From an uncultured delta proteobacterium (GTDB taxonomy: Bacteria; Desulfobacterota; RBG-13-43-22): a stretch of 64,000 nucleotides of DNA. The stretch covers positions 64,001 through 128,000 of the forward strand of contig CAWDKY010000032.1 of the NCBI GenBank assembly GCA_963802945.1. Direction: 5' to 3'. Position numbers and translations under genes: made by a program. Under the pieces are notes generated by a model. The model did no database searches. It was not told the origin of the DNA and was given only the letters and a program-made list of their open reading frames with translations. Every line of letters begins with the position of its first letter. Positions within the stretch are counted from its first letter, which is position 1. Shown here piece by piece: positions 10,464 to 56,151 of the stretch.

Positions 10464-10769
10464 AACGAGCCTAACGTGGTGCAAAAACCCCATCATTTAT
10501 CTTTTATTAATTATTGACTTTTGTCCCGGAAAACCCCATCCCCCTTTTGGGGAAAGGATTGCCTGCTGGTGTTGATTCGCCTGCTTGCCGGGCGACGGGG
10601 CAGACATGGCAGGCAGACATGGAGGGGAAATTCAACTTTTAACAAAACCGTCAAAATATAATATTTTTCATTCCATAGTTAAAGATTAAGCGTGTTAGTC
10701 TTTCCACCTCATTTTTATTGGTAAAAAATAATAGAGACGAATCCGGACCTGATTAGGAGTCTATGTCGG

Positions 10770-11585
10770 ATGGAAACTGATCAAGTAAAACTGCGGATCG
10801 AACACCTATCACTCAGCTTTGGCGGTGTCAGCGCACTGGTCGACATTAGCCTGGACATCCGGGACAAAGAAATACTGGCCATTATCGGACCTAACGGCGC
10901 CGGAAAGACCGCCCTTCTCAACTGCATCAACGGCTTCTACAAACCTCAAAAAGGTGAGATCGTTTATAACGGGAAAAGGATTACCCGGATGCGCCCGGAC
11001 AAGCTGGCGAGCTTGGGCATTGCTAGGACCTTTCAGAACATCGAGCTGTACACAGGACTGACCACCCAGGATAATATCATGGCCGCCCGGCATGTGCTCA
11101 TGAAGCAAAACTTCCTCACGGGTTCGCTATACTTCGGCTGGGCCGTCAAAGAGGAAATCAAGCATCGCCGGACCGTCGAGGAGATTATCGATTTCCTGGA
11201 AATAGCGCCCATTAGAAAGAAGGTGGTCGGTCTGCTGCCCTACGGAATGCGAAAAAGGGTCGAGCTGGCCAGGGCTTTGGCCCTGGAGCCGAAAGTTCTG
11301 CTGCTTGACGAGCCTATGGCCGGGATGAACCTGGAGGAAAAGGAGGATATTGCCCGGTTCATCATTGATGTCTTCGAAGGCCAGGGAGACACCTATCCGG
11401 ATACCCCGGTTCTGAGGGATGGGATCGGCTGCATCATCCTGGTCGAACATGATATGGGAGTGGTTATGGACATTGCCGACCGGATTATCGTCCTTGATTT
11501 CGGGCGAAAGATTGCCGAGGGCACCCCGGCCGAAATCAGCACCAATCCCGAGGTGATCAGCGCTTATCTGGGGAAAGGGAAATAG
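10770..11585 (+). CDS. ABC ATP-binding protein, LivG-like
   Basis: GPNGAGKT, LLDEPMAG, VEHDM. Confidence 0.92.
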   Translation: METDQVKLRIEHLSLSFGGVSALVDISLDIRDKEILAIIGPNGAGKTALLNCINGFYKPQKGEIVYNGKRITRMRPDKLASLGIARTFQNIELYTGLTTQDNIMAARHVLMKQNFLTGSLYFGWAVKEEIKHRRTVEEIIDFLEIAPIRKKVVGLLPYGMRKRVELARALALEPKVLLLDEPMAGMNLEEKEDIARFIIDVFEGQGDTYPDTPVLRDGIGCIILVEHDMGVVMDIADRIIVLDFGRKIAEGTPAEISTNPEVISAYLGKGK

Positions 11586-11631
11586 ATCCAAACCAAGAAT
11601 ATTTTGAGAATTTATCTCTAACTTTTTCGAA

Positions 11632-11688
11632 TGGAATATTGGAATGGTGGTCTCAAAAATCCAATACTCCACCACTCCAATACTCCAG
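11632..11688. repeat. Inverted octamer-type repeat (TGGAGTAT/ATACTCCA family)
   Basis: tggaatattggaatggtgg ... ccaatactccaccactccaatactcca. Confidence 0.55.
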
Positions 11689-11750
11689 TTTATATCATTG
11701 TAATTAGTTCTGGATTTATAAGATATTTCAAATAACGTTGGTAAGATTTC

Positions 11751-12546
11751 ATGCTGCAAGTCAACAATATCGAAGTGGTCTATATGAATGTCATTCAGGT
11801 GCTGCGAGGCGTATCCCTGGAGGTGGGTGATGGAAAGATCGTTGCCCTGCTCGGGGCCAATGGCGCCGGCAAGACGACCACACTCAAGGCCATATCCGGA
11901 ATGCTGAAGACGGAAGAGGGAAAGGTAACCGATGGCAGCATTGATTTTGATGGAAAGAGGATTGACCAGTATGGTCCCGAGGCCATTGCCGCTTTGGGCA
12001 TCAGCCAGGCCATGGAAGGGCGAAGGGTTCTTGAGCACCTGAGTGTTGAGGAAAATTTACTGGTCGGCGCTTACTGCCGTAAAGACCGGGCCGGGGTCAA
12101 GAGGGACCTGGAAATGGTCTTTGACTACTTCCCCAGGATCAAAGACCTCCGCTACCGGATCAGCGGCTATCTGTCCGGTGGTGAACAGCAGATGCTGGTG
12201 ATCGGGCGGGCGCTCATGGCCCGTCCGAAGCTGATGCTTCTGGATGAACCTTCACTCGGTCTGGCCCCTTTGCTGGTGCAGGACATCTATGAAATCATCC
12301 AGAGAATCAGTGTCCGAGCAAAAAATGGCCATACTCCTTGTGGAGCAAAACGTCAGAGCTGCCCTGGGTATCGCTGATTATGGTTATGTGATGGAGAATG
12401 GCAGGGTGGTTCTAGGAGGTCCGGCTGAGAAGTTAAGAGATAATGAGGATGTTCGGGAATTTTATCTGGGATTATCGGCTGTCGGCTCCCGAAAGAGCTA
12501 TCGTGAAATCAAGCACTACCGGCGCAAGAAGAGGTGGTTGAGTTAG
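11751..12546 (+). CDS. ABC ATP-binding protein, LivF-like (frameshift ~12315)
   Basis: GANGAGKT, LSGGEQQML, LLVEQN in second frame. Confidence 0.88.
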
Positions 12547-12549
12547 AAA

Positions 12550-14513
12550 ATGAAGACAAAGGCCATGACAGACAGGGACGAAGGCAGAGATCTCATAAAG
12601 AAAAGGGCGATACCTGGCCCAAGATACTCAAGTATAACTTTGAAAAGTATGGCGATAATCGAAGAGCCATGCGCCATAAGCACTACGGCATCTGGCAGCC
12701 TTACTCCTGGAAGGACTACTATCTCAAGGTCAAATACCTGGCCCTTGGGTTGCTGTCCCTCGGCTTTGAACCCGGGGATAAGGTGCTTATTGTCGGGGAT
12801 AATGCCCCCGAGTGGTATTATGCCGAACTGGCTGCCCAGGCCAGTCATGGGGTTTCTGTGGGGGTGTGTCCGGATTTACTTCCTCGGGAGATAAAAATCA
12901 TTGCCGAAAATTCCGAAGCCAGATTTGCCATCGTTGAAGATCAGGAGCAGGTGGATAAGTTTCTCCAAATCAAAGCCGAGCTTCCCTTGCTCAAAAAGGT
13001 TATTTACTGGAGCTATAAGGGACTGGCCCACTATGATGACCCTATTTTGATGGGCTATAAACAGGTCCTGGAAAAAGGGGACAATATGAGGCGGAACACC
13101 TCGGGCTCTTTGAGCGCATAGTGGAAACCGGCAAGGCCGATGATATCTGCGCCATGGTTTACACTTCAGGGACCAGCGGAACCGCACCCAAGGGAGCTGT
13201 CCACACCTATAGGACGATGAGGGCGGGCGCCGATCATTATTTACATCTTGATCCCTGGTATGAAAACGACAATGTGGTCCCTTACCTGCCCCCGGCCTGG
13301 ATGACTGAGCAATGGGTTGGAATCGGTTGTCACCTGCTATCGGCTTGCATCCTGAACTTTGCTGAAGCGCCGGAGACCCAACAGCGGGATACCAGGGAAA
13401 CAGGACCAAGCATCGTATTCTACGATGCCCGGCTATGGGAGAGTCTGGCGGCCATGGTCCAGGCACGGATTCTTGGGGCTGATGCTATCCAAAAGCTGGC
13501 CTTCCGTCTGTTGATGCCGATCGGCTACAAGATGGCCGATCTGAGGTTTCAAAAGAAAAAACCGGACCTCTTCCAGAAAATACTCCACGGCTTGGCTGAT
13601 CTCGTCCTATTCAGACCTCTTAGAAACAGTCTTGGTCTGTCCAATGCCAGAATCTGTTATAGCACCGGGGCCGTGCTCAGTCCGGAGGCCTTCAGGTTCT
13701 ACCATGCCCTGAATCTTCCCCTCAAAAGCCTATACGGGACAACAGAGGGCGGAGCTCTCACCGGCGCCAGGGATGAGGACATCTGTACTGAGACTGTTGG
13801 GCCTGTCCCCAAGGGGACGGAGGTAAAAATAACCGATAATGGGGAACTGATTTATCGTCAGCCCGGCATTTTTGTCGGATATTATAAGGACCCGGAGAAG
13901 ACTGCCGAAGTGCTAAAAGACGGGTGGTTTTATAGTGGAGACAGCGGTTTCATCCGGGAGGATGGACACATTGTATTTTTGGACAGGGTCAGAGGACTTA
14001 ATTGAGCTGGAAAGTGGCGAAAAACTGGCCCCCCAATGGATTGAGAGCCGGCTGAAATTCAGTCCTTATATCAAGGAAGCCTGGGTTCTGGCCGGACCGG
14101 ACCAGGCCTACGCCTCGGCAATATTAATCATTAACTATGATACATGTCAGAAGGTGGGCCGGACAAAAGAGGGTGGCTTATACTACCTTCGCCGAGCTTT
14201 CCCAGAAGGCCGGAGGTTTACGAGTTGGTGAAGCAGGATATCGACAGAATAAACAGCACGCTTGCCCCCGGGTTGCAGGGTGAAGAAATATGTCAACCTG
14301 CACAAGGAATTCGATCCGGATGAGGGCGAGGTAACCAGGAACAGAAAGCTGAGGAGGACCTTTTTGGAAGAGCGTTATCGCGAGCTTATCGATGCGATCT
14401 ATGGGGATAAGACCGAGGTGTCGATAGAAGCCCGGGTCAGGTATCAGGATGGGCGGACGGGAACCATAAAGACGACTCTTAGCATCAAGTCTGTTGAAGG
14501 AGCCTTCGTATGA
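12550..14513 (+). CDS. AMP-dependent long-chain acyl-CoA synthetase embedded in the ABC operon (several frameshifts)
   Basis: YTSGTSGTAPKG, GWFYSGD, GEVTRNRKLRR across consecutive ORF fragments. Confidence 0.8.
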
Positions 14514-18837: not shown

Positions 18838-19948
18838 GGCAGATTCTACTTGCAAGTGCGCCACATTAGATAACCGCAGGACATGATGGGATTTTCTGGT
18901 AGTGTGTGAAGCACGACCAACACGCACCCCAGAAAGGGACCCATCATGCCCTATACCCATCTTACAGAAAAAGATCGATATGTCATCAGCCATTTGAAGG
19001 TGGCCGGTTTTTCGCTACGGGAGATTGGACGTCGTCTCGGGCGAGACCATGCCACCATTAGTCGGGAGATCAAACGTAACGGCCCAACCTATCCTGAAGG
19101 AATATACTGGTACGATTTCACACAACCCCGGGCCATTGAGCGGCGTCATAAAGCCCGGCATTATCGCCGGCATGATCACCGTACGCTGGTTGAATATGTT
19201 GAAGCTAAAATCCGTATCGAATGGCCTCCGGAAGTTATTGCTGCTCACCTAAAGCTTGATCACCCAAACGATAAAACCATGCGTATCTGCCAGGAAACTA
19301 TTTATCGGTGGATATTTCAAGATGCTCAACAAGGTGGCGATCTCTACTGCTATCAGAGACGCCGTCACAAAAAACGCCGCAAACAAAGACGCTATGGCTC
19401 GGGAAGACGTTTTATCCCTGGGCGTGTTTCCATTGATCAACGTCCATCCCTGGTTGATTTACGCCAACGGTTTGGGGACTGGGAAGGGGACACGCTGGAA
19501 GGTGGAAAAGGAAAAGGGGGCCTGGCCACTCATGTCGAGCGTAAAGGCCGTTATCTATTGGCAGCCAAGCTCTCGGACAAGACCTCCAACACCATGACTC
19601 AGCAAAGCATTAAATCCTTTCGGAAAGCTCCCCGGACCCTACGCCATACCCTCACCGTTGATAATGGTAAAGAATTTTCTAATTTCAAAGAGCTCGAAAA
19701 TAAAACCGGGTTAAAAGTCTATTTCGCAGACCCCTATGCAGCTTGGCAGCGGGGAATCAATGAAAATACAAATGGTCTGTTAAGACAATATTTCCCAAAA
19801 GGAACTGATTTCCAAAAGATATCGGAAAAAGAGATTGCTTTTGTCGTTAAAAAACTAAATAATCGCCCCAGAAAATGTCTCCACTACCAGACCCCTCATG
19901 CGGTCTTCTGTCAGGCTCTTAGTGGTGCACTTTGAAGTAGAATCTGCC
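18838..19948 (+). mobile_element. IS30-family insertion sequence
   Basis: Terminal IRs GGCAGATTCTACTTGCAAGTGCGCCAC / GTGGTGCACTTTGAAGTAGAATCTGCC around the transposase. Confidence 0.92.
18946..19935 (+). CDS. IS30-family transposase
   Basis: [35 protein letters not shown]. Confidence 0.95.
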
Positions 19949-30435: not shown

Positions 30436-31166
30436 TGAACCCCCTTCCTGATTAATGATTTAAGAAACCGCTTTCTTCCTTCGGTTAATTCCGGATTTAG
30501 GATGAGTTGAAGTATTTGATCAGCGACCTCCTCGGGTCTTGCCGGAGAAATATTTTTTAAAAAATCTCTTGGAAAAAGGCTTAACATCTCCGTATCGACA
30601 TATCCCGGGCAGAGGTAAGCAATTTTGATATTCGTAGCGGCCACCTCCTGTGACAAGGCTTCAGTCAAGCCAACCAGCCCGAATTTTGAGGCACAATAAA
30701 CGGCTAGATTAGGGAACCCTCCTTTCCCGGCCCCAGAGACCAAATTAATAATTTGCCCATAACCTTGCCTCAGCATGATCAACAATACTTCGCGCGAGCA
30801 AAGAAAAGCCCCTTTTAAATTGGTATCAATCATTTTATCCCAATCCGCGCTCGTTGTCGAGACCATTGGACCATAAACCAATACTCCTGCATTATTAATC
30901 AGAACATCTATCCGCCCATAGCGATCCACGACCTGAGCGATGAGGCTCTTCACTTCCTTCTCTTGTCGGACATCGGTAGGAATTGGAATACAAGAACCAC
31001 CCTTAGCCTTAATGAGGCCGCAAGCCTTTTCCAAGGCTTCCTTATTCCGTGCCGCCAGAATCACCTGTGCGCCTTTTTCAACCAAAATCAGAGAAGTTGC
31101 CAACCCGATTCCCTTGCTGGCGCCAGTCACAATAATCACTTTGTCTTGGACTAAACTTTTATTCAT
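30408..31166 (-). CDS. SDR oxidoreductase
   Basis: TGASKGIG, NNAG, YCASK. Confidence 0.92.
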   Translation of the reverse strand: MNKSLVQDKVIIVTGASKGIGLATSLILVEKGAQVILAARNKEALEKACGLIKAKGGSCIPIPTDVRQEKEVKSLIAQVVDRYGRIDVLINNAGVLVYGPMVSTTSADWDKMIDTNLKGAFLCSREVLLIMLRQGYGQIINLVSGAGKGGFPNLAVYCASKFGLVGLTEALSQEVAATNIKIAYLCPGYVDTEMLSLFPRDFLKNISPARPEEVADQILQLILNPELTEGRKRFLKSLIRKGVQWITWRKLG

Positions 31167-32169
31167 TGGCTAAGATGCTCATCATCCCAACAACTGCTCG
31201 AGCGGCCTTAACTAAAAACTTGGGGTTCAGCTTATCCAAGGTATCGTCCGCACTATGCATGTAGGGATTTCTGTAAAAGGAGGTAATGAACACCGCATTA
31301 TAGCCCTTCTCCCAGAAGGATAGTTCATCCCCTCAACCACACTGAGGGCCGATATTTTTTTTGATCCCAATGTCCCCCCCCTTCAAACGGGAATAAATGT
31401 TCTCAACAAACGAGGTATTGGCCGGACGCCCGCCGACCAGTAAAATTTCATTAGGATTTTTAAATCCTGTTTGGACAAAATAAATCGGCTTTTTAATCAT
31501 CTGTTTGGCCAAGTAAAGCCCTTCTCTCAAAAAGCCTGTGCCTTGAGTTTCCCGCCACAAGGCCTTCAAAGAAGGTTGCGTGTATCCGATCGTATCGATG
31601 TTGATGACTCCTTTAATGGAACGACCCTTGGCCGCCAGTTCTTGGGCATAGGCTTGGCTGCCTTTGTGGCCCTGTTCTTCATTGGAAAAAAAGACCCACT
31701 CCACCGTGTTATTACCGGGATTCCCGGCTAAGAATCGAGCCCCTTCCAATAAAACCGCCACCCCTGTGCCGTTGTCGTCGGCCCCGGGGGCCGACCTGTG
31801 GGATTCCCAGCCGGCCGGGTGCGAATCGTAATGGGCGCAGACCACATAAACCGTTTCAGGATCTTTTTTCCCTGAAATGCGGGCCACAACATTTTTCCAT
31901 ATTTTGCCTTCTGCGGTATAAAAGGGGTAGTTTACATCCAAGGTTTTGTACGGTTTGAGTTTATGGTAAAGATAGTCGGCCACTTGATTCTGTTTTTCCC
32001 AGGTCGTTCGATTTCTAAAGGATTGCAGTTCCTCTAAAGTCTTGAAGATCGATCGTTCCGAGATCTCCATGGGTTCTCTTCCCGGCTGGCGGAAAAGGCT
32101 GGAAGCAACAGCTGGGCTTTGTTGAAAAAATACCCAGAGAAAAACAAGAAGCCATAATTTAATTTTCAT
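31159..32169 (-). CDS. Secreted M28-family metallopeptidase, 336 aa with in-frame UGA at codon 279 (candidate selenocysteine)
   Basis: AHYDS, GADDNGTG, NEEQG, NIDTIG; frame continues past TGA (31333-31335) as GDELSFWEKGYNAVFITSFYRNPYMHSADDTLDKLN...ANE*. Confidence 0.8.
31305..31332 (-). promoter_or_regulatory. Candidate SECIS hairpin of the M28 gene
   Basis: UGA-GGGGAUGAACUAU-CCUUCU-GGG-AGAAGG. Confidence 0.5.
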
Positions 32170-32184
32170 TAAACCCGTCCTTTT

Positions 32185-33625
32185 TTAAAACCGATGGTCT
32201 TTCTTATCCTCTTTTTTATCCGGGTTAAGGCTCTTGACTTCTTTTTCAATTCGTTCTTTCTGCTGGGGATCTTTTTCAACATATTTCAAGGCGGTTTGGA
32301 AATGAAACAAGGCCTTCTTTCTATCTCCCTTCAAACCGAACGACTTTCCAAAATAATAATGGGCCTGTCCCAGATTGTTCAAATTTCCATAGACCATACC
32401 CAGATAATAATAAAGATCCTCTCCCTCCGAACCGAGCTTCAAGGCCCTTTGAAAATTTTCCAGGGCCAATAGATTTTCCCCTTTTTCCTGGTAGGCTCGG
32501 CCTAGAAAAAAAGCGGTGCTGGCATCTCTTGGATCAAGAATGGAGGCCTGACCCAATTTTTGAATGGCCTTTTCCAGGTCTCCCTTCATAAAAAAGGCTT
32601 GACCTAAATCTCTCACCAGGTAGATCTCTTGCGGTCTTAGCAATAATGCCTTCTCAAATTGATCGACGGCATCGTCAAATTTCCCTTCACGGATATCAAT
32701 CCAGCCTTGGCCGTAATGGACCCAAAATAAAGTTTGGGTGTCCTTGGCCCAGGACTGAAAAAGATTTCTGGCCCTTTGTAAGTCACCATAGTTGGTCAGG
32801 ATAATGGTTTGGACGCGTCGGAATTCATCGGAAGTCCCCCGCCAGGGACCCTGATTGGCATATTGTTGTATCAGGCTTTCAATATGGGACATGCGGTCCA
32901 CGGTCAGGGGATGGGTCATCATATAGGCCGGGATCCCTTCTGAACCAAATGACCCCCAGCGGCGAAGGTTGTCGAACAGATCGATCATGCCCTTGGGATT
33001 GAATCCCGTCTTGGACATATATTTGAATCCAAAATTGTCTGCCTCGCTTTCGTCCTCTCGACTGTATTGCAGGAACAAGGTCTGGGCCGTGGCCATAGAA
33101 CCGGCCATGGTGGCCATCAGCTATGTTGGGATCTCCGGCCAAAATGCCGAGCAAAACCGCAGCCATGGTGGCCAGGCCGATCTTTTTTTGTTTTTCCATC
33201 TGTCTGGAAATGTGGTGGTGGGTGACATGGGTGATCTCGTGGCCGAGTAAACCGGCCAGTTCAGCTTCCGAGTTCATGATTTGAATAATGCCGGTGGTAA
33301 CAAAGACATGTCCGCCCGGAACGGAAAAGGCATTCAATTGGGGATCCTTTAAGAGGTAAAAACGAAAAGGGTAGGGTTGTGGCCCGGCTTGTTTGAGAAT
33401 CTCTTGGCCCAGTCTATTGAGATATTCCAGGAGCAAAGGATCATGGATCACGGAGAATTCCTTCTCCACTTCTCGGACTGCATCTTCTCCTAACTTTTGT
33501 TCCTCTGCGGTGGTCAGGGCGCAAATATTTCCTCCAGTTCCTGGCAACCAGAAATTGATTTGAAAAAATAGGAAAAATCCTATTAGCCCACTGATGATCT
33601 TAATCAATTTGTTGCGCATGCTCAT
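32185..33625 (-). CDS. M48 metallopeptidase with TPR repeats, BepA-like (frameshift ~33120)
   Basis: NAFSVPGG, HEITH, YSREDESEAD, THP, TPRs. Confidence 0.87.
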
Positions 33626-37739: not shown

Positions 37740-38880
37740 TTACCCTTCCGCCTTGGTTATGACCATATTGTCCCGGTGTATCACTTCATCCGAATGTTTG
37801 AATTCCAGTCGTCTTTCAATTTCCGAGGTCTTCAGTCCACGGATTTTCATTATATCTGAAGACGAATAATTAACCAGTCCTTTTCCAACAACTCGATCTG
37901 TTTGATCCACAAGGCTGACACAGGCTCCGATCCCAAAACGCCCGCGCACTTCAACCACTCCTGAAGGCAGCAGACTTTTCCCCTTTTCCGTCACAGCCTT
38001 TTTAGCCCCTTCATCCACGACAATTTCCCCTTTGGGTTTAAGGGTAAAAGCGATCCAGTGTTTCTTCCGACTTAAGAGCGGTTTTTGGGGTAGGAAAAAG
38101 GTACCCAGGGGTTTCCCTTTGATGATCTCTTGTAGAACACCCGGCTTCCTTCCATTGGCGACAATGACCGGAATACCGCCGGCTGTGACCTTTCGAGCGG
38201 CCATTATCTTGGAGCGCATCCCGCCCAAACCCCACTGCTCCTGAATATTTCGAGGTATATTCGACGACCTTTCCATCGACATGTTCAACCACGGGAATTA
38301 AGCGGGCCTTGGGGTCTTCCCGAGGATCCCGATCATAAAGTCCTTCCGTATCGGTCAGAACGATTAACAGATCGCTTTCGATCAGATGAGCGATCAAGGC
38401 CGAAAGGTTGTCATTGTCGCCGAATTTAATTTCATCCACAGCCACCGTGTCGTTTTCGTTGATAATCGGGATGATTCCCCATTCTAAAAGGGTGATCAAG
38501 GTATTTCTGGCGTTCAGATACCGTTGACGATTGGTTAGGTCTTCACGGGTCAAAAGGATCTGGGCCACCAACAACTGATGGGTATTAAAGGCCTCTTCAT
38601 AAGCATACATCAAGCTTCCCTGGCCGACCGCCGCCACGGCTTGTTTCTGAGGAATGGTAACCGGTTTCCGGCTCAGACCCATCTTGCCTACACCCGAAGC
38701 AATGGCCCCTGAACTGACGATAGCCGTTTGATACCCTTTCTTTCTCAAAAAGGCGATATCATCGGCCAAACGGGCAATGGCCGGACGATGCAATACCCCG
38801 TTATCGGTCAGGACTGCGCTGCCGATTTTGATTACGATCTTTTTAATCCCTTTAATGAGGGCTTTTCGTTGTTCCATCAA
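37740..38880 (-). CDS. proB: Glutamate 5-kinase (frameshift ~38240)
   Basis: KIGSAVL, NENDTV, FGDND, GGMRSK, PUA domain. Confidence 0.93.
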
Positions 38881-39900
38881 TCCGGTCCAATTCTCCAGAG
38901 TCTCTTGGTCGCAACAGTCGAAAAAAGGTGATCTATTAAAAAGGGAATACCTTCTCCGGTTTTGGCCGATATGGGAATCACATCCTGTTTGAGCTTTTTA
39001 AAAGCCCTTTGGATCCTTTTGAAATTGGCTTGCGATGGAGGTAAGTCCATCTTATTGACCACCACCAGTCGAGTTTTATCCAAAAGGGTCGTGATTATAG
39101 GCCTCCATTTCCTTTACCAGGGTCTGATAGGAAAAAAAGGTTCTTTCCCTGGTAAGGAGCCGTCAATCAAAAACACTAGAACTTCAGTCCGATCAATGTG
39201 CTTGAGGAATTTGAGTCCCAGCCCGGCCCCCTCGCTTGCACCGGCAATAATCCCAGGAATATCGGCTATAGTCAAGCGCTGTCCTTGATTATTTTCAAGA
39301 ATCCCAAGGTTGGGTGCAAGGGTGGTAAAAGGATAGTCGGAAATTTTGGGTTTGGCGTGCTGAAAGCCTGGAAAGCAGGGTAGATTTCCCGGCATTGGGC
39401 AGGCCCACCAGTCCTATCTGGGCCAATACTTTCAACTCCAGTAACAGCCAGGCCTCGATGCCCGGCTCTCCTCTTTGGGCGAATCTCGGGGTCCGATGAG
39501 TGGCCGTGGCAAAGTGCTTATTCCCCTTGCCCCCTCTCCCACCCCGGGCAACGACTAAGGTCTGACCTTCTCTGGTTAAATCCGCTAAGACTTCCCCTGT
39601 TTCCAGCTCCCGAACCAGGGTCCCCAAGGGAACGATGAGTCGAATGTCCTGGCCTTTTCTGCCGTCTCGATCATTACCCTGACCGTGGGCCCCTTTGGGG
39701 GCCTTAAAATGCTGATGAAAATGATAATCCTGTAAGGTCTGACACTGAGAGGTGGCGGTAATCAGGACGTCCCCGCCCTTGCCCCCATCGCCGCCGTCCG
39801 GACCTCCCCGGGGTTTAAATTTCTCCCGTCGGAAGCTTAGGCACCCATTGCCCCCGTCTCCGGATCGAACAAAAATTTTGGCTTCGTCAAAGAATTTCAA
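38877..39900 (-). CDS. obgE: GTPase Obg (several frameshifts)
   Basis: [33 protein letters not shown] in successive frames. Confidence 0.92.
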
Positions 39901-40921: not shown

Positions 40922-41110
40922 TGATGGATTCGTAAAAAGTCATCAAATGAGACGGCACAGTAAAAAGCTCCGGATACAAGGCGCACAAATCCTGAGGAAT
41001 GAGGCATACAAAGAAGTACGCCGCAATAAGCTTGCCCCGCTGAAAAGCGGGGAAGGGTGCAGAGCAATCCCGCGAAACGCGGGACTGATGGACTTTTTAC
41101 GAGGCCGTCA
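40922..41110. mobile_element. MITE-like element with 4-bp target duplication
   Basis: TIRs TGATGGATTCGTAAAAAGTC / GACTTTTTACGAGGCCGTCA; AGGA on both sides. Confidence 0.78.
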
Positions 41111-42589: not shown

Positions 42590-42644
42590 AAAGTTTATCG
42601 GAAATATACACATAATCGGTCGCTGACCCAGGACGCATAGACTT

Positions 42645-42700
42645 GGATCAGCCCTTTTGTCTTGATATCTTACTGATACCATAATAAAGGTCCTGGCCCT
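42645..42700 (+). repeat. Palindromic spacer R1 (~52 bp)
   Basis: ggatcagcccttttgtcttgatatcttactgataccataataaaggtcctggccc. Confidence 0.75.
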
Positions 42701-42736
42701 TTTTACATTCAACAATCATTCTCCATGGAGGGTTTT

Positions 42737-43042
42737 ATGGAATGGTATTATTATCTCGCTGGCTTCTTCGCTGGTTTGTTTTTAACCAATGCTATTCCAC
42801 ATTTCGTGCATGGTATATCCGGTAATCGTTTTCCGACCCCCTTCGCAAAGCCACCGGGCAAAGGATTATCATCTCCAACAGTAAATGTTTTGTGGGCTCT
42901 TGCTAATCTCATTATCGGGTACATCCTCTTTAGAGTGGGTATGGTCTCTCAAACAAATATATGGACCCTTGTCACGTTTTTTGCCGGTGTCGCTTTCGCC
43001 AGTATAGTGTTAAGCCTTACATTCATTAATAAGGAGCATTAG
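42737..43042 (+). CDS. Small membrane protein
   Basis: Three hydrophobic segments; NAIPHFVHG, FPTPFAKPPG; GGAGG RBS. Confidence 0.8.
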   Translation: MEWYYYLAGFFAGLFLTNAIPHFVHGISGNRFPTPFAKPPGKGLSSPTVNVLWALANLIIGYILFRVGMVSQTNIWTLVTFFAGVAFASIVLSLTFINKEH

Positions 43043-43108
43043 GAACTCAAGCTAATTAAGGCTTGTAACATAAACCCTGTAAGTGAGAAACACTGTTGGG
43101 TAGAATAA

Positions 43109-43162
43109 GGGTAGGCCTGTTGTCTTGATTTTTTACTAACACCATAATAAAAGACCCTATTT
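43109..43162 (+). repeat. Palindromic spacer R2
   Basis: gggtaggcctgttgtcttgattttttactaacaccataataaaagaccctat. Confidence 0.75.
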
Positions 43163-43248
43163 TCTGTGCTCGGTCGGACGAAGAACACACTCGTAAAGAC
43201 TATTCGTCATTAGGGGAGGCACCCTATAAGGGAGCACGGAGGTGCACC

Positions 43249-44100
43249 ATGACATCATGGGAGGAAACACCGCTTGGTAGGCTTACAAGCCATATGCATA
43301 ACCTTTTTGAAGAATACTTTAAGAAGCATCCCCAAAGAGACCACAGTCAGGACAATGCTCTCCTCGAGGTCCGCAATCTTGTTCTTCAATCTGTTGAAAT
43401 TTTTCTTAAAGAGTCCAGCATTCATAAGCAGTATGGCGTGCCGATTGACTCCTTAAGTCTAGTCTCTTTTGCTTCCGATGATGAACCCGTCAATCCTCAA
43501 AGTTCCTGGATACCCATTCCAGGCGGTGAGGATAAGAAACGTCCCGCCGGGATCACAAATGAGGAGTTTACAGAATTCTCTGACCGCCTTAGTAAGCTCT
43601 TTATCGATCACGGAATGTATACATCGGGTCTTTTCGTTAATGTGCTTAACCTTTTCCGCGACGCGTACTTAAGGCCTGCAGAGAACAGACCCTTCAGGCA
43701 AGGCACATACACAAGGCTTATATTCGGCAACATAGTTTACAATGAAACAATCAAACAACAGGCTGTACCCTGTGAGGTATGTGGAGAGAATAGGGTTGTC
43801 GATATTTGCCATATCATCCCGAGGAGAATCAAGGGCACACAGAAGATTGATAATGTTCTCTTCCTGTGTCCGTCTCATCACCGCCTTTTTGATGCCTGCA
43901 TGTTGACTAAAGAGGAGTGGGATAAAGTACTTTGGACCAGGAAGTCACGCAAGTCACAGATTTACGCTGAGAAGGTTCTTAAAGTGGCACATGGGAAATT
44001 CTGGGAAAAAGTAGAAGCTGCCAATTACCAGAAGCAAACAACTTGGGAAATAGGGCTTCATGATCTCTACAAGTCGAACGAGAAAGACATCGATGAATGA
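43249..44100 (+). CDS. HNH endonuclease domain protein
   Basis: CEVCG...CHIIPR...DNVLFLCPSHHRLFD; GGAGG RBS. Confidence 0.82.
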   Translation: MTSWEETPLGRLTSHMHNLFEEYFKKHPQRDHSQDNALLEVRNLVLQSVEIFLKESSIHKQYGVPIDSLSLVSFASDDEPVNPQSSWIPIPGGEDKKRPAGITNEEFTEFSDRLSKLFIDHGMYTSGLFVNVLNLFRDAYLRPAENRPFRQGTYTRLIFGNIVYNETIKQQAVPCEVCGENRVVDICHIIPRRIKGTQKIDNVLFLCPSHHRLFDACMLTKEEWDKVLWTRKSRKSQIYAEKVLKVAHGKFWEKVEAANYQKQTTWEIGLHDLYKSNEKDIDE

Positions 44101-44276
44101 TCTTGTCTATATCCCGATAAAAAGAATAAAGGGGACAAACAGGAAATCAAAATAATTAAGAAAGCAACGTATAATAAAAGCATTGTGCTGACAGGGGATA
44201 AGCCCGTTTTGTTTTTGCAAAAGCCGATTGACCCGTGCGGCTGATTCCCCTCGTTCGGCACAGAAGAAGACAGGCT

Positions 44277-45047
44277 ATGGAACCTAAGCTATCCACGATC
44301 AAGAGACTGTTCGCTCTTTCGGGCAATCAATGCGCATTCCAAGGATGCTCTGCTCCCATTGTTGAGGGTAGCGGCTCGATAACAGGTGTTGTGTGCCACA
44401 TCTGCGCACGAAGTCCTGGCGGACCTCGCTACTACCCCATGCAAACCGATGAGGATCGACACGGATTCGAGAATCTTGTCTTGATGTGTGCCCGACACAG
44501 CAAACTCATAGACAATGAGCCGGAGCGGTACTCACCAAAATTTTTGCGAGACATGAAGACCATGCACGAAAAAGGTGGGTCGATAGAATTGTCAGCATTA
44601 CAAGCTCATATGGCTACACTCCTTTGGGAAAACTACAAGTCAATTCACATCTCAGCTGGTGGCCATGTCATGGTCAACAGCCCAGGCGCAATACAAGCTG
44701 AAAAAGTCACTATCAAAACAAATCGAGCCAGCATCAGGCCTGCTCTTCGCGAAGGCACGATCGCTGCGGATCGCTCCAAACGAAATTACGTGAAACACCT
44801 CATCGACCAGTATAACAATTTTGCCTCAAAGCAACCGGGGCGGAAGTTTTCGTTCGTAGCGATTTATGCTGATATCAAGAAACGTTTCGGGGCGCATTGG
44901 GAAGAAAATGCTATTGAGAAATTTCCTGATATAGTGGCATACTTACAGCAACGAACTGACGGGACAAGGTTGGGAAGGATCAACCACGGAAAAGGCTATC
45001 CCAATTATTCGACATACGAAGAGTATAGGCGGAAATATCGGGAGTAA
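44277..45047 (+). CDS. Protein with N-terminal HNH-like domain
   Basis: KRLFALSGNQCAFQGC, CHICARSPGGPRY, ENLVLMCARHSKLID. Confidence 0.8.
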   Translation: MEPKLSTIKRLFALSGNQCAFQGCSAPIVEGSGSITGVVCHICARSPGGPRYYPMQTDEDRHGFENLVLMCARHSKLIDNEPERYSPKFLRDMKTMHEKGGSIELSALQAHMATLLWENYKSIHISAGGHVMVNSPGAIQAEKVTIKTNRASIRPALREGTIAADRSKRNYVKHLIDQYNNFASKQPGRKFSFVAIYADIKKRFGAHWEENAIEKFPDIVAYLQQRTDGTRLGRINHGKGYPNYSTYEEYRRKYRE

Positions 45048-45062
45048 TAAAGCGTAGAATAA

Positions 45063-45200
45063 GGTCAGGTTATTGGTCTCGATGTATTACTAAGACCTTA
45101 ATAAAAGATCCGTTTCTATTCTATTTATTTCAGAAGAGTTGGGTATGCTCAATAAAGGCCTGAAATGCGATTTGGCGTGTACGGATGTAAACAGGGACTT
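45063..45200 (+). repeat. Palindromic spacer R3 plus ~60-bp extension duplicated at 46008-46140
   Basis: ggtcaggttattggtctcgat...taataaaagatcc, then tatgctcaataaaggc...gatgtaaacaggg. Confidence 0.75.
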
Positions 45201-45355
45201 TATCCTTCCAAATGGCTTTGGGGACGCTGGTAAGAAAATAAATTATCAAAAGGAATATATGAGTTGTTTGCCGCATATCCCGAATGAGTTTCTTATTTAT
45301 TTATCAGCATCCCAATGTGTCTATAGATAGAAGCCGTTTTTTTAACAAACGGCAT

Positions 45356-45508
45356 TTATCCGTCATTTAGATTTTTCTTTTTGTCCTGCCCTTCAACCTG
45401 GCAGGAAGATTTAGACATTCAGCCCTGGATGCCGAATTTCGGAAAAACCCACCGATTCAGGGCATACCAACCGGCAATAATAATCAACAACCAGATAATT
45501 GTTTTCAT
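45356..45508 (-). CDS. 50-aa membrane peptide with in-frame UGA at codon 30 (candidate selenoprotein; not in ORF track)
   Basis: MKTIIWLLIIIAGWYALNRWVFPKFGIQG-U-MSKSSCQVEGQDKKKNLNDG*; hairpin UCCUGCC-AGGUUGAAG-GGCAGGA after UGA. Confidence 0.72.
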
Positions 45509-45549
45509 TTTCCATCCTTAATGAAACCTAAGAACTCACGGTTCTTAAA

Positions 45550-45768
45550 TTACGAAGCTCATGAAAATCCCGAAGAAGAGGGGCCGCAGGAAGAGGAAAA
45601 AGACGCCTCATTCCCCGACTGCTCCCCCGCCTTGGAAAACGCTGATAACAGTCGAATGACCTTTTCTCCTTTACAATAAGGGCATTGAACCGTTTTATCT
45701 TTTGAATTCAAGATTATTTTTTCAAAGGTTCGGGAACAATCAGAACATTGATATTCATAAATAGGCAT
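45550..45768 (-). CDS. FmdB-family zinc-ribbon protein, probable C-terminal Sec (…SCGPSSSGFS-U-AS*)
   Basis: MPIYEYQCSDC...CPYC; TGA GCT TCG TAA followed by hairpin UAAGAAC-CGUGA-GUUCUUA. Confidence 0.75.
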
Positions 45769-46007
45769 ATTCATCCTCCTTCCCGTTTTCGAAGAATATT
45801 TAATAAAATAATGATAAATCCCTTTTTGTCAAGGGTCGAATCATATTAAATGCTACCAAGATGGTAGTAAAATAGGGAACGTTGATTCATAATTACTGTT
45901 ACTGAGGGATGTAGATTCCATTCATCATAACTCTCAAGTTACTCCCTCCCCCTCCGTTCGTTTGAACAAGGGCTTGCCAATGGGATCAGGTCAAGAGTAA
46001 ATAACAG

Positions 46008-46140
46008 AATCAGGTCTTTTGTCTTGATCTTTTGCTAATACCAGAATAAAAGACCCTAATAGTTCACAACGGGAGAATTTGTTATGCTCAATAAAGGCTT
46101 AAAGTGCAATTTGGGGTGCACCGATGTAAACAGGGGCTTT
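46008..46140 (+). repeat. Palindromic spacer R4 plus duplicated extension
   Basis: tcaggtcttttgtcttgatcttttgctaataccagaataaaagaccc; tatgctcaataaaggc...gatgtaaacagggg. Confidence 0.75.
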
Positions 46141-46148
46141 ATAAACAA

Positions 46149-47186
46149 GGAGTCAGGGCTGCTCTTGATTCTTATTAATACTTTATGAAAAAGATTGGAA
46201 TATGTCCAGACCATTGAGAATAGAATACCCGGATGCCTGGTATTATGTCATGAATCGTGGGAGACCGAGAGAGGAAGTCTTCACCGGCCCAAAAGACTAC
46301 AGGCAATTTATTGAAGTCATAAATGAAACAGCGGGGATTTGGAAACTGCGGGTAGCGGCCTATGGTTTGATGCCCAATCATTATCACCTTTTAGTTCAGA
46401 CACCCCATGGCAACCTGTCCCGCTGTCTGCGCCACATCGATGGGGTGTATACCCAGAGATTCAATCGAGCCCACGGCACTAACGGGCCATTATTCCGGGG
46501 GCGCTACAAGTCGATTCTGGTCGAAGCCGACAGTTATTTGCTCCCTCTGGTAAGGTATATTCATCGGAATCCCTTGAGGGCCGGTTTGGCAAAAACAATG
46601 GCTAGGTATCCCTGGAGCAGTCACAAGGATTACTTGTCGAGTGCCGAAATGAACCGTTGGTTCAATAAAGCCTTTGTACTTTCCATGTTTTCTGGGAAAA
46701 AGCAAGAGAGGCTAAGGGATTATCGACGGTTTGTTTCCTTGAAAGATGAAGAGGAAATTATAGAGATTTTAGGGAGAAAGAAGTGGCCGTCGGTTTTAGG
46801 TTCGAGAGATTTTATCTATCGGATAAAAGAGAGGTTTTATTCGGGCCAGACAGATAATGAAGTACAACGGTCCAAGGCATTGGCTCCGAAGGTAAAGCAA
46901 ATCCAAGAAGCAATAGAAAAATTTTATAGGATCAGCAGGAAAGCTTTGATGTCTTCCCAACGGGGAGTTTTCAATGAACCGAGGAATATGGCCATTTATT
47001 TGACACGCCAGTTGAGAGGGGACAGTTTAAACCAGATCGGCCTGGATTTTCGTATGAACAATTACAGTTCGGCGAGCAGTGCAATTGAAAGAACCAAACG
47101 GTTGATGGCCGAGGACAGGAAGTTAAGAACAAAGGCAAAAAAACTCTTTTTTCAGTTGAGCAAGAGTCAAAAGCAGACTTGACTCC
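46149..47186 (+). mobile_element. RAYT-like element bounded by 25-bp inverted repeats
   Basis: GGAGTCAGGGCTGCTCTTGATTCTT vs reverse complement of right end GGAGTCAAGTCTGCTTTTGACTCTT (21/25). Confidence 0.75.
46202..47182 (+). CDS. HUH Y1 transposase (RAYT-like) with C-terminal DnaA-like HTH
   Basis: MSRPLRIEYP, LMPNHYHLL (HUH), YIHRNP, YPWSS; PRNMAIYL..SLNQIG. Confidence 0.9.
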   Translation: MSRPLRIEYPDAWYYVMNRGRPREEVFTGPKDYRQFIEVINETAGIWKLRVAAYGLMPNHYHLLVQTPHGNLSRCLRHIDGVYTQRFNRAHGTNGPLFRGRYKSILVEADSYLLPLVRYIHRNPLRAGLAKTMARYPWSSHKDYLSSAEMNRWFNKAFVLSMFSGKKQERLRDYRRFVSLKDEEEIIEILGRKKWPSVLGSRDFIYRIKERFYSGQTDNEVQRSKALAPKVKQIQEAIEKFYRISRKALMSSQRGVFNEPRNMAIYLTRQLRGDSLNQIGLDFRMNNYSSASSAIERTKRLMAEDRKLRTKAKKLFFQLSKSQKQT

Positions 47187-47540: not shown

Positions 47541-48806
47541 TTAGGCAGCCTTTTTGAGCACTCTCCTTTCGGGGGCCTGGTATTGTCCCACATAGTCGTT
47601 GTCGTCCCGAACGATGGCATGGATGATCCCTAAGAGCTTCCTCGATACGGCAATCAGCGCCCTCATCCTGCCCATGCCCCTGTCGGTCAGTCTGATATAA
47701 TACTCATACAGGATTCCATTCTTTCTTATCGTTTGGATAGCCGCATAGAACAGGATTTTTCTCAGAAGGCTCCGGCCCTTCTTGGATATCCTTCTCTGCC
47801 CTTTTCTTTTCCCCGAACTGATCTCGTAGAGGTCAAGCCCCGCCAGCTTCAGGATTTCGGACTGGGAACTGAACTTCGAAAAATCTCCCACCTCGCCAAT
47901 GAGACCGGCCACTGATACTATTCCCAGGCCTTTGATCGACAACAACCTGGAGCTAAAGGGTATCCGTTCGAGGGTGGATTCCATCTCGGCTTCTATCTCG
48001 GCCATAAAGCGCTTTTCAGCTTCAAGCTGTAGGAGGATATGCCGGATGTCCCTGACGATACCGGCCAGACCCTCTTGGATACCTACCGTCCCTTGTGCCA
48101 GGGCAATCAGAGACTCCGCATCTTGAAAACCGAACTTGCCCCGGCTCCGTTTCCACATCTCTTCCCCCAGCGCCTTCTTGGATAAGCTGCCTATCCTTTC
48201 AGGAGTGGTATATCTTTTCAGGAGGTACTGAGCCGTCTTGCCCCGGATTTCCTTCAACACGGTTTTGAATTCAGGGAAGATAAGGTAGACGAGCTGCTGG
48301 AGTTGATTGAGCAGTGCGGTCCGCTCTCCCACGTGCCGTTCCCGGGCGTGGGTCAACATCCTCAGATAGGCCGCATCCCCCTCGGGGACAATGATGGTCA
48401 AAGCCCTTCCTAGTCGGATGATATCCGCGATCACCCTCGGGTCCTTATCGTCCGTCTTCAACGGAGAGTTGTCATTGACTTCCTTCATCTTCTTCGTGTG
48501 CATGGGGTTGACCTGGACCATTTTGACCTGTTTATCCGCAAGATAATGGACCAGGGGTTCAGCATAGGGGCCTGTAGATTCATAGCCAACGAGCACCTCA
48601 TCACATCCAAAACGGTTCTTACTCGCTATAGTCATACCCCAAAACTTTTCGAATCCTTCCCGGGTGTTGCCAAACCTGAAAGTCTTGGTGCTTCTCCCGT
48701 CCATGGTTGTGCAATACCCTGTGTTGCTGGCTAAGCCTATATCCACCGTGGCAATCAGCGTGCCTTCCTTCACCGTTTTTACCCTTTTCGCCCTCAGTTC
48801 TCTCAT
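47541..48806 (-). CDS. IS110-family recombinase/transposase
   Basis: VDIG, ESTGPY, KTDDKD (DEDD); SSGKRKG..ISKKG; AGGAGG RBS. Confidence 0.93.
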   Translation of the reverse strand: MRELRAKRVKTVKEGTLIATVDIGLASNTGYCTTMDGRSTKTFRFGNTREGFEKFWGMTIASKNRFGCDEVLVGYESTGPYAEPLVHYLADKQVKMVQVNPMHTKKMKEVNDNSPLKTDDKDPRVIADIIRLGRALTIIVPEGDAAYLRMLTHARERHVGERTALLNQLQQLVYLIFPEFKTVLKEIRGKTAQYLLKRYTTPERIGSLSKKALGEEMWKRSRGKFGFQDAESLIALAQGTVGIQEGLAGIVRDIRHILLQLEAEKRFMAEIEAEMESTLERIPFSSRLLSIKGLGIVSVAGLIGEVGDFSKFSSQSEILKLAGLDLYEISSGKRKGQRRISKKGRSLLRKILFYAAIQTIRKNGILYEYYIRLTDRGMGRMRALIAVSRKLLGIIHAIVRDDNDYVGQYQAPERRVLKKAA

Positions 48807-49011
48807 TGTCATCTCCTCCTTGTTTCCTAATCGGAATAAACAGCTCCAGAAAAGGAGGATATCCTTACTTCTTGTTCCCCTCAATCATGAACTACAATAT
48901 AGCAAGCTGAACTCGTGATTTTCTAAGATCCTCCTTCCATGCAACCTTCGATTAGTAATCAATAATTCTTGTATCAGCGGACAGTAAGAATATTTTTTCA
49001 AAAAATAAAGC

Positions 49012-50066: not shown

Positions 50067-50546
50067 ATGTTTGCCACGGCATTGTATGTTTTGACCGGCT
50101 TGCTGCTTTTTATCTCTTTTCGTAAAGACAGAAAAAAAACCATTCAGGGATTAAAAAAATCATGGAAGGCTTTTGAAAATATCTTACCCCTGTTCCTTTC
50201 GATCATCATGATTATCGGGCTGGGGCTTGCCCTCTTAAGCCCCCAGGTAATATCAAAGTGGATGGGCGAAAAATCCGCCTGGCTTGGAATAGCGGCTGCG
50301 GCCTTTATCGGCTCGGTGACTCTGATACCGGGTTGGATTACCTTTCCTTTAGCCGCTGTCTTATTAAAGAGTGGAGCAGGCTTAATCCAGATAACCGTGT
50401 TTGTGTCCACTTCCATGATGGTTGGAGTTGTCACCATGCCTGCGGAAATAAGATATCTTGGACGAAAAGTCGCTGTTTTTAGAAATACCCTAGCCCTTGT
50501 TTTTTCCTTCATCGTATCCTTGATTATGTGGGAGGTGCTAAAATGA
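50067..50546 (+). CDS. Predicted permease, first of a pair (DUF318-like)
   Basis: Hydrophobic; GSVTLIPG..FPLA. Confidence 0.78.
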   Translation: MFATALYVLTGLLLFISFRKDRKKTIQGLKKSWKAFENILPLFLSIIMIIGLGLALLSPQVISKWMGEKSAWLGIAAAAFIGSVTLIPGWITFPLAAVLLKSGAGLIQITVFVSTSMMVGVVTMPAEIRYLGRKVAVFRNTLALVFSFIVSLIMWEVLK

Positions 50547-51079
50547 TAAACTTGTTTAAAAGATATAGATTTTTTTTGGCAATGGTTTTAATTAATCTGA
50601 TTTTGTTGTGGTTAAACTTGGAAGCAGGATTAAGATCCTTCAAAATATCAGCCGACAACATGCTTCAAGTCTTTCTTATCATCCCGCCTATTTTTATTCT
50701 GCTCGGCCTGTTGGATATTTGGGTGAAGAGAGAAACCATGATCAAATTGATGGGAGAAAGCTCAGGTTTACTCGGAATAACCATTGCTTTCTTACTGGGG
50801 TCTTTTGCTGCCGGTCCCCTTTATGCGGCTTTCCCTGTTGCAGGTGTTTTGTTAAATAAGGGAAGCAGGTTTTCTAACATAATCATTTTTATAGGCGCCT
50901 GGTCGACTACCAAAATCCCTATGTTATTATTTGAAACATCAACCATGGGTTGGAGGTTCATGCTGATAAGATTTATTCTGGACATCTTTGGGATCACAGC
51001 CATTGCCTATCTCACCGAAAAGATAATGACCACCCAGGAGAAAGAGATTATTTATCAAAATGCCAATATGCTTGCGTGA
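50543..51079 (+). CDS. Predicted permease, second of the pair
   Basis: AGPLYAAFPVA, GAWSTTKIPM; ATGA overlap. Confidence 0.78.
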   Translation: MINLFKRYRFFLAMVLINLILLWLNLEAGLRSFKISADNMLQVFLIIPPIFILLGLLDIWVKRETMIKLMGESSGLLGITIAFLLGSFAAGPLYAAFPVAGVLLNKGSRFSNIIIFIGAWSTTKIPMLLFETSTMGWRFMLIRFILDIFGITAIAYLTEKIMTTQEKEIIYQNANMLA

Positions 51080-51080
51080 T

Positions 51081-51256
51081 TAAAAACATATTCTATCGAG
51101 ATATTGACCATCTTTTCCTCCTCCGGTGCGGACAATGATTGGGGACCTTTCCAGCACTGAACGTGTTCTAAAGGGGTTGCATATTGGTTTAACAGTGTTT
51201 GTTTGATTAAGTATCTTTGCGAACAAATCATTCCTTCACCACCCCACTCACTTTCA
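51081..51256 (+). repeat. 176-bp direct repeat, copy 1
   Basis: One mismatch seen versus 55976-56151. Confidence 0.92.
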
Positions 51257-55975: not shown

Positions 55976-56151
55976 TAAAAACATATTCTATCGAGATATT
56001 GACCATCTTTTCCTCCTCCGGTGCGGACAGTGATTGGGGACCTTTCCAGCACTGAACGTGTTCTAAAGGGGTTGCATATTGGTTTAACAGTGTTTGTTTG
56101 ATTAAGTATCTTTGCGAACAAATCATTCCTTCACCACCCCACTCACTTTCA
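55976..56151 (+). repeat. 176-bp direct repeat, copy 2
   Basis: Matches 51081-51256. Confidence 0.92.

What the first reader, a model, noticed from the sequence alone, without database searches (positions are those of the whole stretch)
45510..45768. FmdB-like zinc ribbon with probable C-terminal Sec, forming a two-gene selenoprotein operon
Seen: ...SCGPSSSGFS-TGA-GCT-TCG-TAA, then hairpin UAAGAAC-CGUGA-GUUCUUA with the loop 18 nt after the UGA and GU in the loop. The next candidate selenoprotein starts 41 nt after the TAA. All three UGA hairpins in this window share nearly the same spacing, which argues against chance. Known from memory: FmdB-family selenoproteins have been reported. Inference: a soluble CxxC-CxxC/C-x7-U protein and a membrane U-x5-C peptide form an uncharacterised Se-dependent module sitting inside a mobile gene array.
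Basis: partly seen in the sequence, partly recalled or inferred. Interest (0 to 1): 0.75.

Follow-up and report, generated by a model that had tools for sequence, protein, structure and literature searches.

The report
Overlooked zinc-ribbon selenoprotein with membrane partner
A small zinc-finger-like bacterial protein that databases end three residues early very probably carries the rare amino acid selenocysteine at its tip, in many bacterial groups, and it often sits next to a second small selenium-containing membrane peptide.

Summary
The FmdB-family gene reads ...GFS-TGA-GCT-TCG-TAA with a SECIS-type hairpin 18 nt downstream. A membrane peptide with its own TGA and hairpin starts 41 nt later.

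In a genome scan that did not specify the stop codon, 89 of 89 homologues ending GF[ST] used TGA (neighbouring genes: 165 of 326). 85 of 89 had a second in-frame stop within three codons. 84 of 88 had the hairpin (control TGA stops: 23 of 163). The UGA always has a cysteine partner: upstream in 85 cases, and downstream in all 10 that lack one upstream. Only 1 of 120 top protein hits has Cys instead.

The published FmdB selenoprotein has Sec in the zinc knuckle, so this C-terminal form is a different variant; I did not find it described. The partner is an already predicted selenoprotein family. It lies beside this FmdB class in 17 of 120 loci, once fused in frame, so the pairing recurs but is optional. 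The repeat-bounded "mobile array" is local to this genome.

Function is inferred: a flexible Cys/Sec arm that binds soft metals or metalloids, with a redox relay as close rival.

The parts
45550..45768 (-). Gene 1: FmdB-family zinc ribbon (TIGR02605/PF09723), 72 aa with read-through, tail C-x8-U-A-S (Cys61, Sec70)
   Evidence: family statistics
45559..45561 (-). Sec-encoding UGA of gene 1 (predicted)
   Evidence: 89 of 89 GF[ST] homologues have TGA; Cys version P0115 with the same short extension
45525..45551 (-). SECIS-type hairpin of gene 1 (loop CGUGA 45540-45536), lying almost wholly after the true stop
   Evidence: meets the published bSECIS constraints
45356..45508 (-). Gene 2: 50-aa single-helix membrane peptide, P-x-F-G-x-x-G-U-x5-C; member of the predicted 'Geobacter lovleyi hypothetical' selenoprotein family
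45419..45421 (-). Sec-encoding UGA of gene 2 (predicted)
   Evidence: 17 of 17 DNA homologues plus the window have TGA; 9 of 17 protein hits have Cys there
45384..45406 (-). SECIS-type hairpin of gene 2 (7-bp stem, loop AGGUUGAAG, -11.1 kcal/mol)
45333..45353 (-). Terminator-like stem directly after gene 2 (consensus match only)
   Evidence: 3 found, 1.1 +/- 1.1 in shuffles
45805..45832 (-). Sigma70-like promoter match upstream of gene 1 (not above chance)
   Evidence: 2 found, 3.1 expected
45031..45203 (+). Copy of the ~100-bp D1 repeat plus the ~70-bp D3 repeat, bounding the two genes on the left
45976..46142 (+). Copy of D1 plus D3 on the right, directly upstream of the transposase
46202..47182 (+). 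Y1/RAYT-like HUH transposase with a DnaA-type C-terminal helix-turn-helix (context, not part of the Sec module)
   Evidence: PF01797 above cut-off; NF047646 71.9 bits against cut-off 80

Best explanation
Step 1 (strongly supported by sequence statistics, not by experiment; about 0.95 for the family, 0.9 for this organism): the UGA after GFS is recoded as selenocysteine by the hairpin behind it, which lies in the 3' untranslated region, and the protein ends 1-2 residues later. Gene 2 is likewise a selenoprotein. Step 2 (model plus inference): the protein is a folded four-cysteine zinc ribbon carrying a disordered Ser/Gly arm whose working part is one Cys plus one Sec. Step 3 (inferred, the mechanism I commit to): the arm is a two-ligand trap for soft, thiophilic metals or metalloids (As(III), Hg(II), Cu(I) species). 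It carries or senses them in the cytoplasm and can hand them to, or take them from, the U-x4/5-C pair of the membrane peptide on the cytoplasmic face of the membrane. The confidence given is for all three steps together.
For: TGA in 89 of 89 GF[ST]-ending homologues against 165 of 326 neighbour ORFs, including 15 of 15 loci below 45% GC where neighbours use TGA 8 of 26 times. The 89 form 76 clusters at 70% identity, mean identity 41%, under at least ten phylum-level labels. Second in-frame stop within three codons in 85 of 89 against 21 of 165 controls, in frame 83 of 88, off frame 0 of 88; the next codon is Ala/Gly in 86 of 88 with a free third base. Hairpin in 84 of 88 against 23 of 163 control TGA, 15 of 161 TAA/TAG, 296 of 1760 shuffles; GU loop 68 of 88 against 4 of 163; pair types vary along the stem. 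Cys partner rule: 85 have Cys within 12 residues before the UGA and none after; 10 lack it and all have Cys after the UGA. One Cys version with the same short tail (P0115). tRNA-Sec 1.7 kb from one homologue. AlphaFold: ribbon pLDDT 80-92, tail 51-63. For metal binding: free Cys-Sec spacing and order; other FmdB tails carry 3-5 Cys (18 of 20 short rows); the same C..GFT-U-G tail ends the TIGR04167 radical SAM selenoprotein; a C-terminal Cys tail binds arsenite in ArsL (bioRxiv 2024.02.01.577332). Adjacent genes are thiol-redox, sulfur-transfer, Fe-S-assembly or metal-handling in 12 of 51 against 1 of 49 distal. Partner: 17 of 120 loci, all of the GF[ST] class, 14 within 500 nt, one in-frame fusion.
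Against: No Sec machinery in the window (one tRNA-Phe only; none among the ORFs scanned), so Sec use by this organism is assumed. No experiment shows read-through or any ligand. The 10 downstream-Cys cases are about three lineages, not ten events. The neighbour category was defined by me after seeing the adjacent set, and about half its members are thiol-redox rather than metal genes. No large gene family recurs next to it. 43 of 57 long-flank GF[ST] loci lack gene 2, and the fused L116 copy lacks gene 2's Cys. Binding between the two products was not tested. The scan pattern demanded a GF[ST]-like tail and stopped at 120 rows, so the share among all FmdB proteins is unknown.
Confidence: 0.45

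Rival explanations
1. Same recoding, but the Cys/Sec arm is a redox couple (selenenyl-sulfide), a swinging arm like the C-terminal arm of animal thioredoxin reductase (recalled). It passes electrons or sulfane sulfur between cytoplasmic thiol proteins and the membrane U-x4-C peptide.
For: Exactly one Cys partner per Sec. Adjacent genes include thioredoxin/AhpF-like, TlpA/AhpC, DsbD, CMD/AhpD and DsrE proteins. Most uncharacterised selenoproteins are thought to be redox proteins (PMC13188914).
Against: Cys-Sec spacing varies from 4 to 12 residues before, or 1 to 4 after, unlike fixed redox motifs; no thioredoxin fold; non-Sec relatives carry multi-Cys tails.
Confidence: 0.35
2. Selenium-status switch or sink: the ratio of the GFS-stopped form to the full U form reports selenium supply to a regulatory zinc ribbon, or simply stores selenium; the chemistry of the tail is secondary.
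For: Stopping at UGA leaves an intact ribbon; the family name implies a regulator (TIGR02605, putative); Cys forms are unusually rare (1 of 120; 0 of 121).
Against: The strict need for a Cys partner points to chemistry; gene 2 lies upstream in 7 and downstream in 9 loci, so no fixed translational coupling; no selenium genes recur nearby.
Confidence: 0.12
3. The UGA is an ordinary stop and the hairpin is a terminator, processing stem or protein-binding site.
For: Databases end the protein at GF[ST] (111 of 120; 19 of 20). The window hairpin region is not unusually stable.
Against: No TAA/TAG in 89; codon-type conservation after the UGA; Cys compensation across it; a Cys version; TTTT after the stem in only 4 loci; the gene 1 hairpin is not called terminator-like.
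Confidence: 0.04
4. The UGA is recoded, but to another residue (Cys or Trp) by a UGA-reading tRNA (such tRNAs in anaerobes are recalled, not checked).
For: 4 of 17 gene 2 protein hits show W at the site, and one gene 1 hit shows L.
Against: W is what gene callers print when they choose a UGA=Trp code (inference); all 17 DNA copies have TGA with 16 of 17 hairpins incl. the window; TGA is a normal stop in these loci.
Confidence: 0.04

Closest known systems
Putative regulatory protein, FmdB family selenoprotein (GOS; TIGR02605; PMC2398784, PMC13188914, PMC12013277 file 3)
   Same: Same zinc-ribbon family, start motif MPIYEY, predicted UGA recoding.
   Different: Published form has UxxU/CxxU in the first knuckle, 2 sequences against 807 Cys homologues, and a different tail. 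Here all four ribbon Cys are intact, Sec is 1-2 residues from the C-terminus, and the Cys form is the rare one.
[quoted passage not shown]
   Same: Gene 2 has the same build: hydrophobic helix, P-x-x-G-x-x-x-U, then M/L and a Cys four to five residues on (compared by eye).
   Different: No NCBIfam or Pfam model; absent by that name from the 2022 and 2026 review tables; its linkage and fusion to FmdB was not found in print.
C-terminal Sec proteins: UXX-star families (NF041114, NF041211), KCU-star, SaoC
   Same: Sec at or near the C-terminus, SECIS beyond the coding region, missed by annotation.
   Different: Different folds; none of these models matched 24 FmdB-U proteins.
Radical SAM selenoprotein TIGR04167 tail; ArsL RCCLKC tail
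   Same: TIGR04167 representative ends in C-x-x-G-x-G-F-T-U-G-G, the same tail pattern; ArsL uses a C-terminal Cys tail to bind arsenite.
   Different: Those tails sit on enzymes; here the tail is on a 45-residue ribbon. ArsL's tail has three Cys and no sequence likeness.

Membership tests
FmdB zinc ribbon (TIGR02605/PF09723) | Paired CxxC motifs, score above curated cut-off | tested here: met
   55.9 bits against 31.3; 52.3 against 34.4
Published FmdB selenoprotein subfamily | Sec in the first knuckle (UxxU/CxxU) | tested here: not met
   All four ribbon positions are Cys and invariant in 77 aligned members; published form
Predicted bacterial selenoprotein (Haft and Gwadz criteria) | At least ten examples, 100% TGA at the site | tested here: met
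   Gene 1: 89 of 89. Gene 2: 17 of 17 plus window
Predicted bacterial selenoprotein | Similarity through the U and Cys-bearing homologues | tested here: met
   Gene 2: 9 of 17 hits have Cys (the query carried C there, which favours them). Gene 1: only 1 of 120, so weakly met; extension conserved
Bacterial SECIS model | Loop 3-9 nt, stem 4-16 bp, G in first two loop positions, 16-37 nt from UGA, MFE <= -7.5 | tested here: met
   Both window hairpins; my version of the rule passes 78 of 88 homologues and 7 of 25 other-tail genes
Predicted bacterial selenoprotein | selA, selB, selC, selD in the host genome | not testable with these tools
   Not in the window; one homologous locus has tRNA-Sec
Geobacter lovleyi hypothetical selenoprotein | N-terminal helix, P-x-x-G-x-x-x-U-[ML]..C | tested here: met
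   By eye against the supplement entries; no formal alignment with those entries
UXX-star, KCU-star, SaoC, Tso families | Match to the NCBIfam model | tested here: not met
Intrinsic terminator (gene 1 hairpin) | U-tract after the stem | tested here: not met
   TTTT in 4 loci only; not called in the window
REP-associated tyrosine transposase (NF047646) | Score above cut-off | tested here: inconclusive
   71.9 against 80; PF01797 met
Integron cassette array | attC sites and an integron integrase | not tested
   No attC model run; no integrase among the ORFs scanned

The most novel reading that the evidence does not exclude
A widespread, unannotated and almost Cys-less selenoprotein family forms a two-selenium relay with a membrane-anchored U-x4-C peptide (fused in one genome). 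The relay moves arsenic, mercury or copper species to the membrane in anaerobes, and in this genome it travels as a cassette between transposase-associated repeats.
Probability: 0.2. Interest if true: 0.8.

Novelty: new variant of a known kind. Interest (0 to 1): 0.63.

Why it matters
It adds a selenoprotein subfamily that looks common in anaerobes (89 in a capped sample of 120 loci) and is mis-ended in databases. It breaks the working rule that selenoproteins have far more abundant Cys homologues (PMC13188914), which deep-Sep names as its blind spot. Its SECIS is free of coding constraint, so it gives a clean natural set for the bacterial SECIS consensus. It gives a first functional handle on FmdB zinc ribbons and links two orphan proteins, so a 72-aa protein and a 50-aa peptide can be tested directly.

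Tried and rejected
Window-only hairpin spacing as proof: rejected, about 6% background. MAFFT alignment of the hairpins was too poor for covariation; replaced by loop-anchored counting. Plasmid searches gave only 3 distant ribbons and nothing for the DNA. PDB sequence and fold searches gave generic zinc ribbons only, no fold match with E <= 0.001. Atlas search with a Cys homologue of gene 2: one unnamed cluster at 0.87, a lead only. Search for further hidden selenoproteins beside FmdB-U: 520 candidates, only the gene 2 family clustered convincingly. Neighbour clustering found no conserved large operon. The tree is a quick one with 64 of 111 branches open (114 rows; L060 and rows of 95 aa or more left out), so it supports no order of events. 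RAYT literature searches gave nothing on repeat-bounded gene arrays. BSepDB supplement lists examined genomes only and was cut before the family table. No complex prediction was run. Left open: cluster names and accessions of the gene 2 hits; DNA context of the Cys versions; metagenome and viral contigs; Haft and Tolstoy 2025, the journal version of Haft and Gwadz, Deng et al. 2026 and bioRxiv supplements, any of which could already mention this form.

Full report
Observation. Gene 1 (45768-45550) is an FmdB zinc ribbon (TIGR02605 55.9 bits, cut-off 31.3) ending CGPSSSGFS-TGA-GCT-TCG-TAA. A 10-11 bp hairpin with loop CGUGA begins its loop 18 nt after the UGA. Gene 2 (45508-45356) starts 41 nt after the TAA and has a UGA with a hairpin loop 19 nt downstream. 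Both hairpins meet the published bacterial SECIS constraints. Within the window this is weak evidence, since about 6% of all stops pass a loose version of the rule.

Test on homologues of gene 1. The one genome scan used a pattern covering the ribbon and a GF[ST]-like stretch but not the stop codon. It stopped at 120 loci, which hold 121 FmdB genes: 89 end in GF[ST], 7 in GFxGGG-type tails, 25 otherwise. All 89 and all 7 stop on TGA; the other 25 use TGA 13, TAG 8, TAA 4; neighbouring ORFs of 200 aa or more use TGA 165 of 326 times. The bias holds in 15 of 15 loci below 45% GC, where neighbours use TGA 8 of 26 times. The 89 are diverse: 76 clusters at 70% identity, mean identity 41%, at least ten phylum-level labels.

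What follows the UGA behaves like coding sequence. The next codon is Ala or Gly in 86 of 88 with a free third base; a second stop follows within three codons in frame in 83 of 88 and off frame in 0 of 88 (one locus dropped because the contig ends). A stem-loop with G at loop position 1 or 2 lies 14-25 nt downstream in 84 of 88, against 23 of 163 control TGA stops, 15 of 161 TAA/TAG stops and 296 of 1760 shuffles; with GU in the loop, 68 of 88 against 4 of 163. Pair types change along the stem, and a TTTT run follows in only 4 loci, so it is not a terminator. Of 95 genes with a complete tail, 85 have a Cys within 12 residues before the UGA and none after it; the 10 without such a Cys all have one after the UGA. 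These 10 are about three lineages. Among the 120 best of 927 protein hits to a family profile, 111 end at GF[ST], 1 continues with Cys and the same short tail, 1 with Leu, and 7 have other ends. One locus carries tRNA-Sec 1.7 kb away. The window holds no Sec machinery, so Sec use by this organism is assumed.

Gene 2. Of 17 protein hits, 9 have Cys at the UGA position, 4 Trp, 2 stop there and 2 have other residues (the query carried Cys, which favours Cys hits). No NCBIfam or Pfam model fits. A profile found the family in 17 of the 120 loci, all beside a GF[ST]-type FmdB, all with TGA: 14 of 57 long-flank GF[ST] loci against 0 of 20 other-tail loci (p 0.016). Seven lie upstream, nine downstream and one on the other strand; 14 are within 500 nt; in L116 read-through runs in frame into the FmdB gene, giving a possible double-Sec fusion. 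The motif is U-x4-C in 16 of 17. The stretch after the helix is positively charged in all 18 copies, which suggests a cytoplasmic C-terminus (inference). [quoted passage not shown]

Mechanism. AlphaFold gives a confident three-strand ribbon and a low-confidence tail; structure searches return only generic ribbons. The conserved unit in the tail is one Cys plus one Sec, at free spacing and in either order. Non-Sec FmdB tails carry 3-5 Cys in 18 of 20 short rows. The TIGR04167 radical SAM selenoprotein ends in the same tail pattern, and a C-terminal Cys tail binds arsenite in ArsL. Adjacent same-strand genes are thiol-redox, sulfur-transfer, Fe-S-assembly or metal-handling in 12 of 51 cases against 1 of 49 distal ORFs; I drew that category after seeing the adjacent set, and 24 of the 49 distal ORFs had no Pfam match (12 of 39 against 1 of 25 among matched ones, p 0.011). 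I rank a soft-metal(loid) binding arm at 0.45, a redox arm at 0.35, a selenium switch or sink at 0.12, no recoding and non-Sec recoding at 0.04 each. Interaction of the two products is inferred from linkage and one fusion only.

Mobile context. A ~100-bp repeat occurs four times (42617, 43078, 45031, 45976), separating a small membrane gene, two HNH genes and the Sec pair; the last copy precedes a Y1/RAYT-like transposase, and a further ~70-bp repeat follows the last two copies. The repeat is in none of the 120 loci, and a related transposase lies near only one. The array is a local feature, and movement is not shown.

Comparison with print. The published FmdB selenoprotein has Sec in the first zinc knuckle (PMC2398784 passages; PMC13188914 section 7 parts 1-2 of 3; PMC9312934 passages; PMC12013277 file 3 part 3). 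Searches that found no C-terminal-Sec FmdB and no pairing; term searches in PMC12013277 text and supplements, PMC13326102 text and its cut supplement, bioRxiv 2022.07.06.499078 (passages and sections 5, 29) and PMC13745706 (passages); and NCBIfam June 2026 on 24 family members. 'FmdB' in PMC11227280 is a different enzyme (passages). PMC13188914 section 9 on selenoprotein operons does not list this pair. Haft and Tolstoy 2025 and Deng et al. 2026 were not seen, so prior mention cannot be excluded.

Verdict. Real and well supported as a predicted selenoprotein; a new variant of a known kind, with a known but orphan partner. Interest 0.63.

Noticed in passing
window 31159-32169 (-), TGA at 31335-31333: M28 peptidase with an in-frame TGA that aligns to a Cys of solved leucine aminopeptidases, a hairpin loop 19 nt downstream (-5.9 kcal/mol), and 57 further residues that match the family C-terminus. 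Candidate Sec peptidase (C-G-U); I saw no M28 selenoprotein in the review table. Homologue DNA not checked.
   Followed up: partly
window 42617-46142: Four copies of a ~100-bp repeat between unrelated genes, upstream of a Y1/RAYT-like transposase with a DnaA-type HTH; looks like a cassette array with a site type I could not assign.
   Followed up: partly
L116 291-671 (-): Gene 2 homologue reads through its UGA in frame into FmdB-U: possible double-Sec fusion. The record is titled Enterobacterales, which looks doubtful.
   Followed up: partly
L009, L031, L052, L074, L094, L104, L113: Nitrospirota variant with tail GFxGGG-U-x2-3-C, all TGA; parallels Acidobacteria tails with GF[ST]-G4-5-CC.
   Followed up: partly
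L056 7888-7986: tRNA-Sec 1.7 kb from the FmdB-U gene.
   Followed up: no
window 8960-14005, 32185-33625, 37740-39900: Several housekeeping genes are split by frameshifts (AMP-binding ligases, M48 peptidase, proB, obgE; the last two named from the sequence by recall), suggesting an error-prone assembly.
   Followed up: no
window 51136-51256 and 56031-56151: Exact 121-bp duplication flanking a TolC/RND/ABC-type efflux operon.
   Followed up: no
window 40922-41110: Short element with 20-bp inverted ends, MITE-like.
   Followed up: no
window 50067-51079 and L019: Pair of ArsP_1/SaoE-like permease halves 4-5 kb from the FmdB-U gene in both the window and L019.
   Followed up: no
window 47541-48884 (-) and 18946-19935 (+): IS110-family transposase and an integrase-core (rve) transposase.
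   Followed up: no
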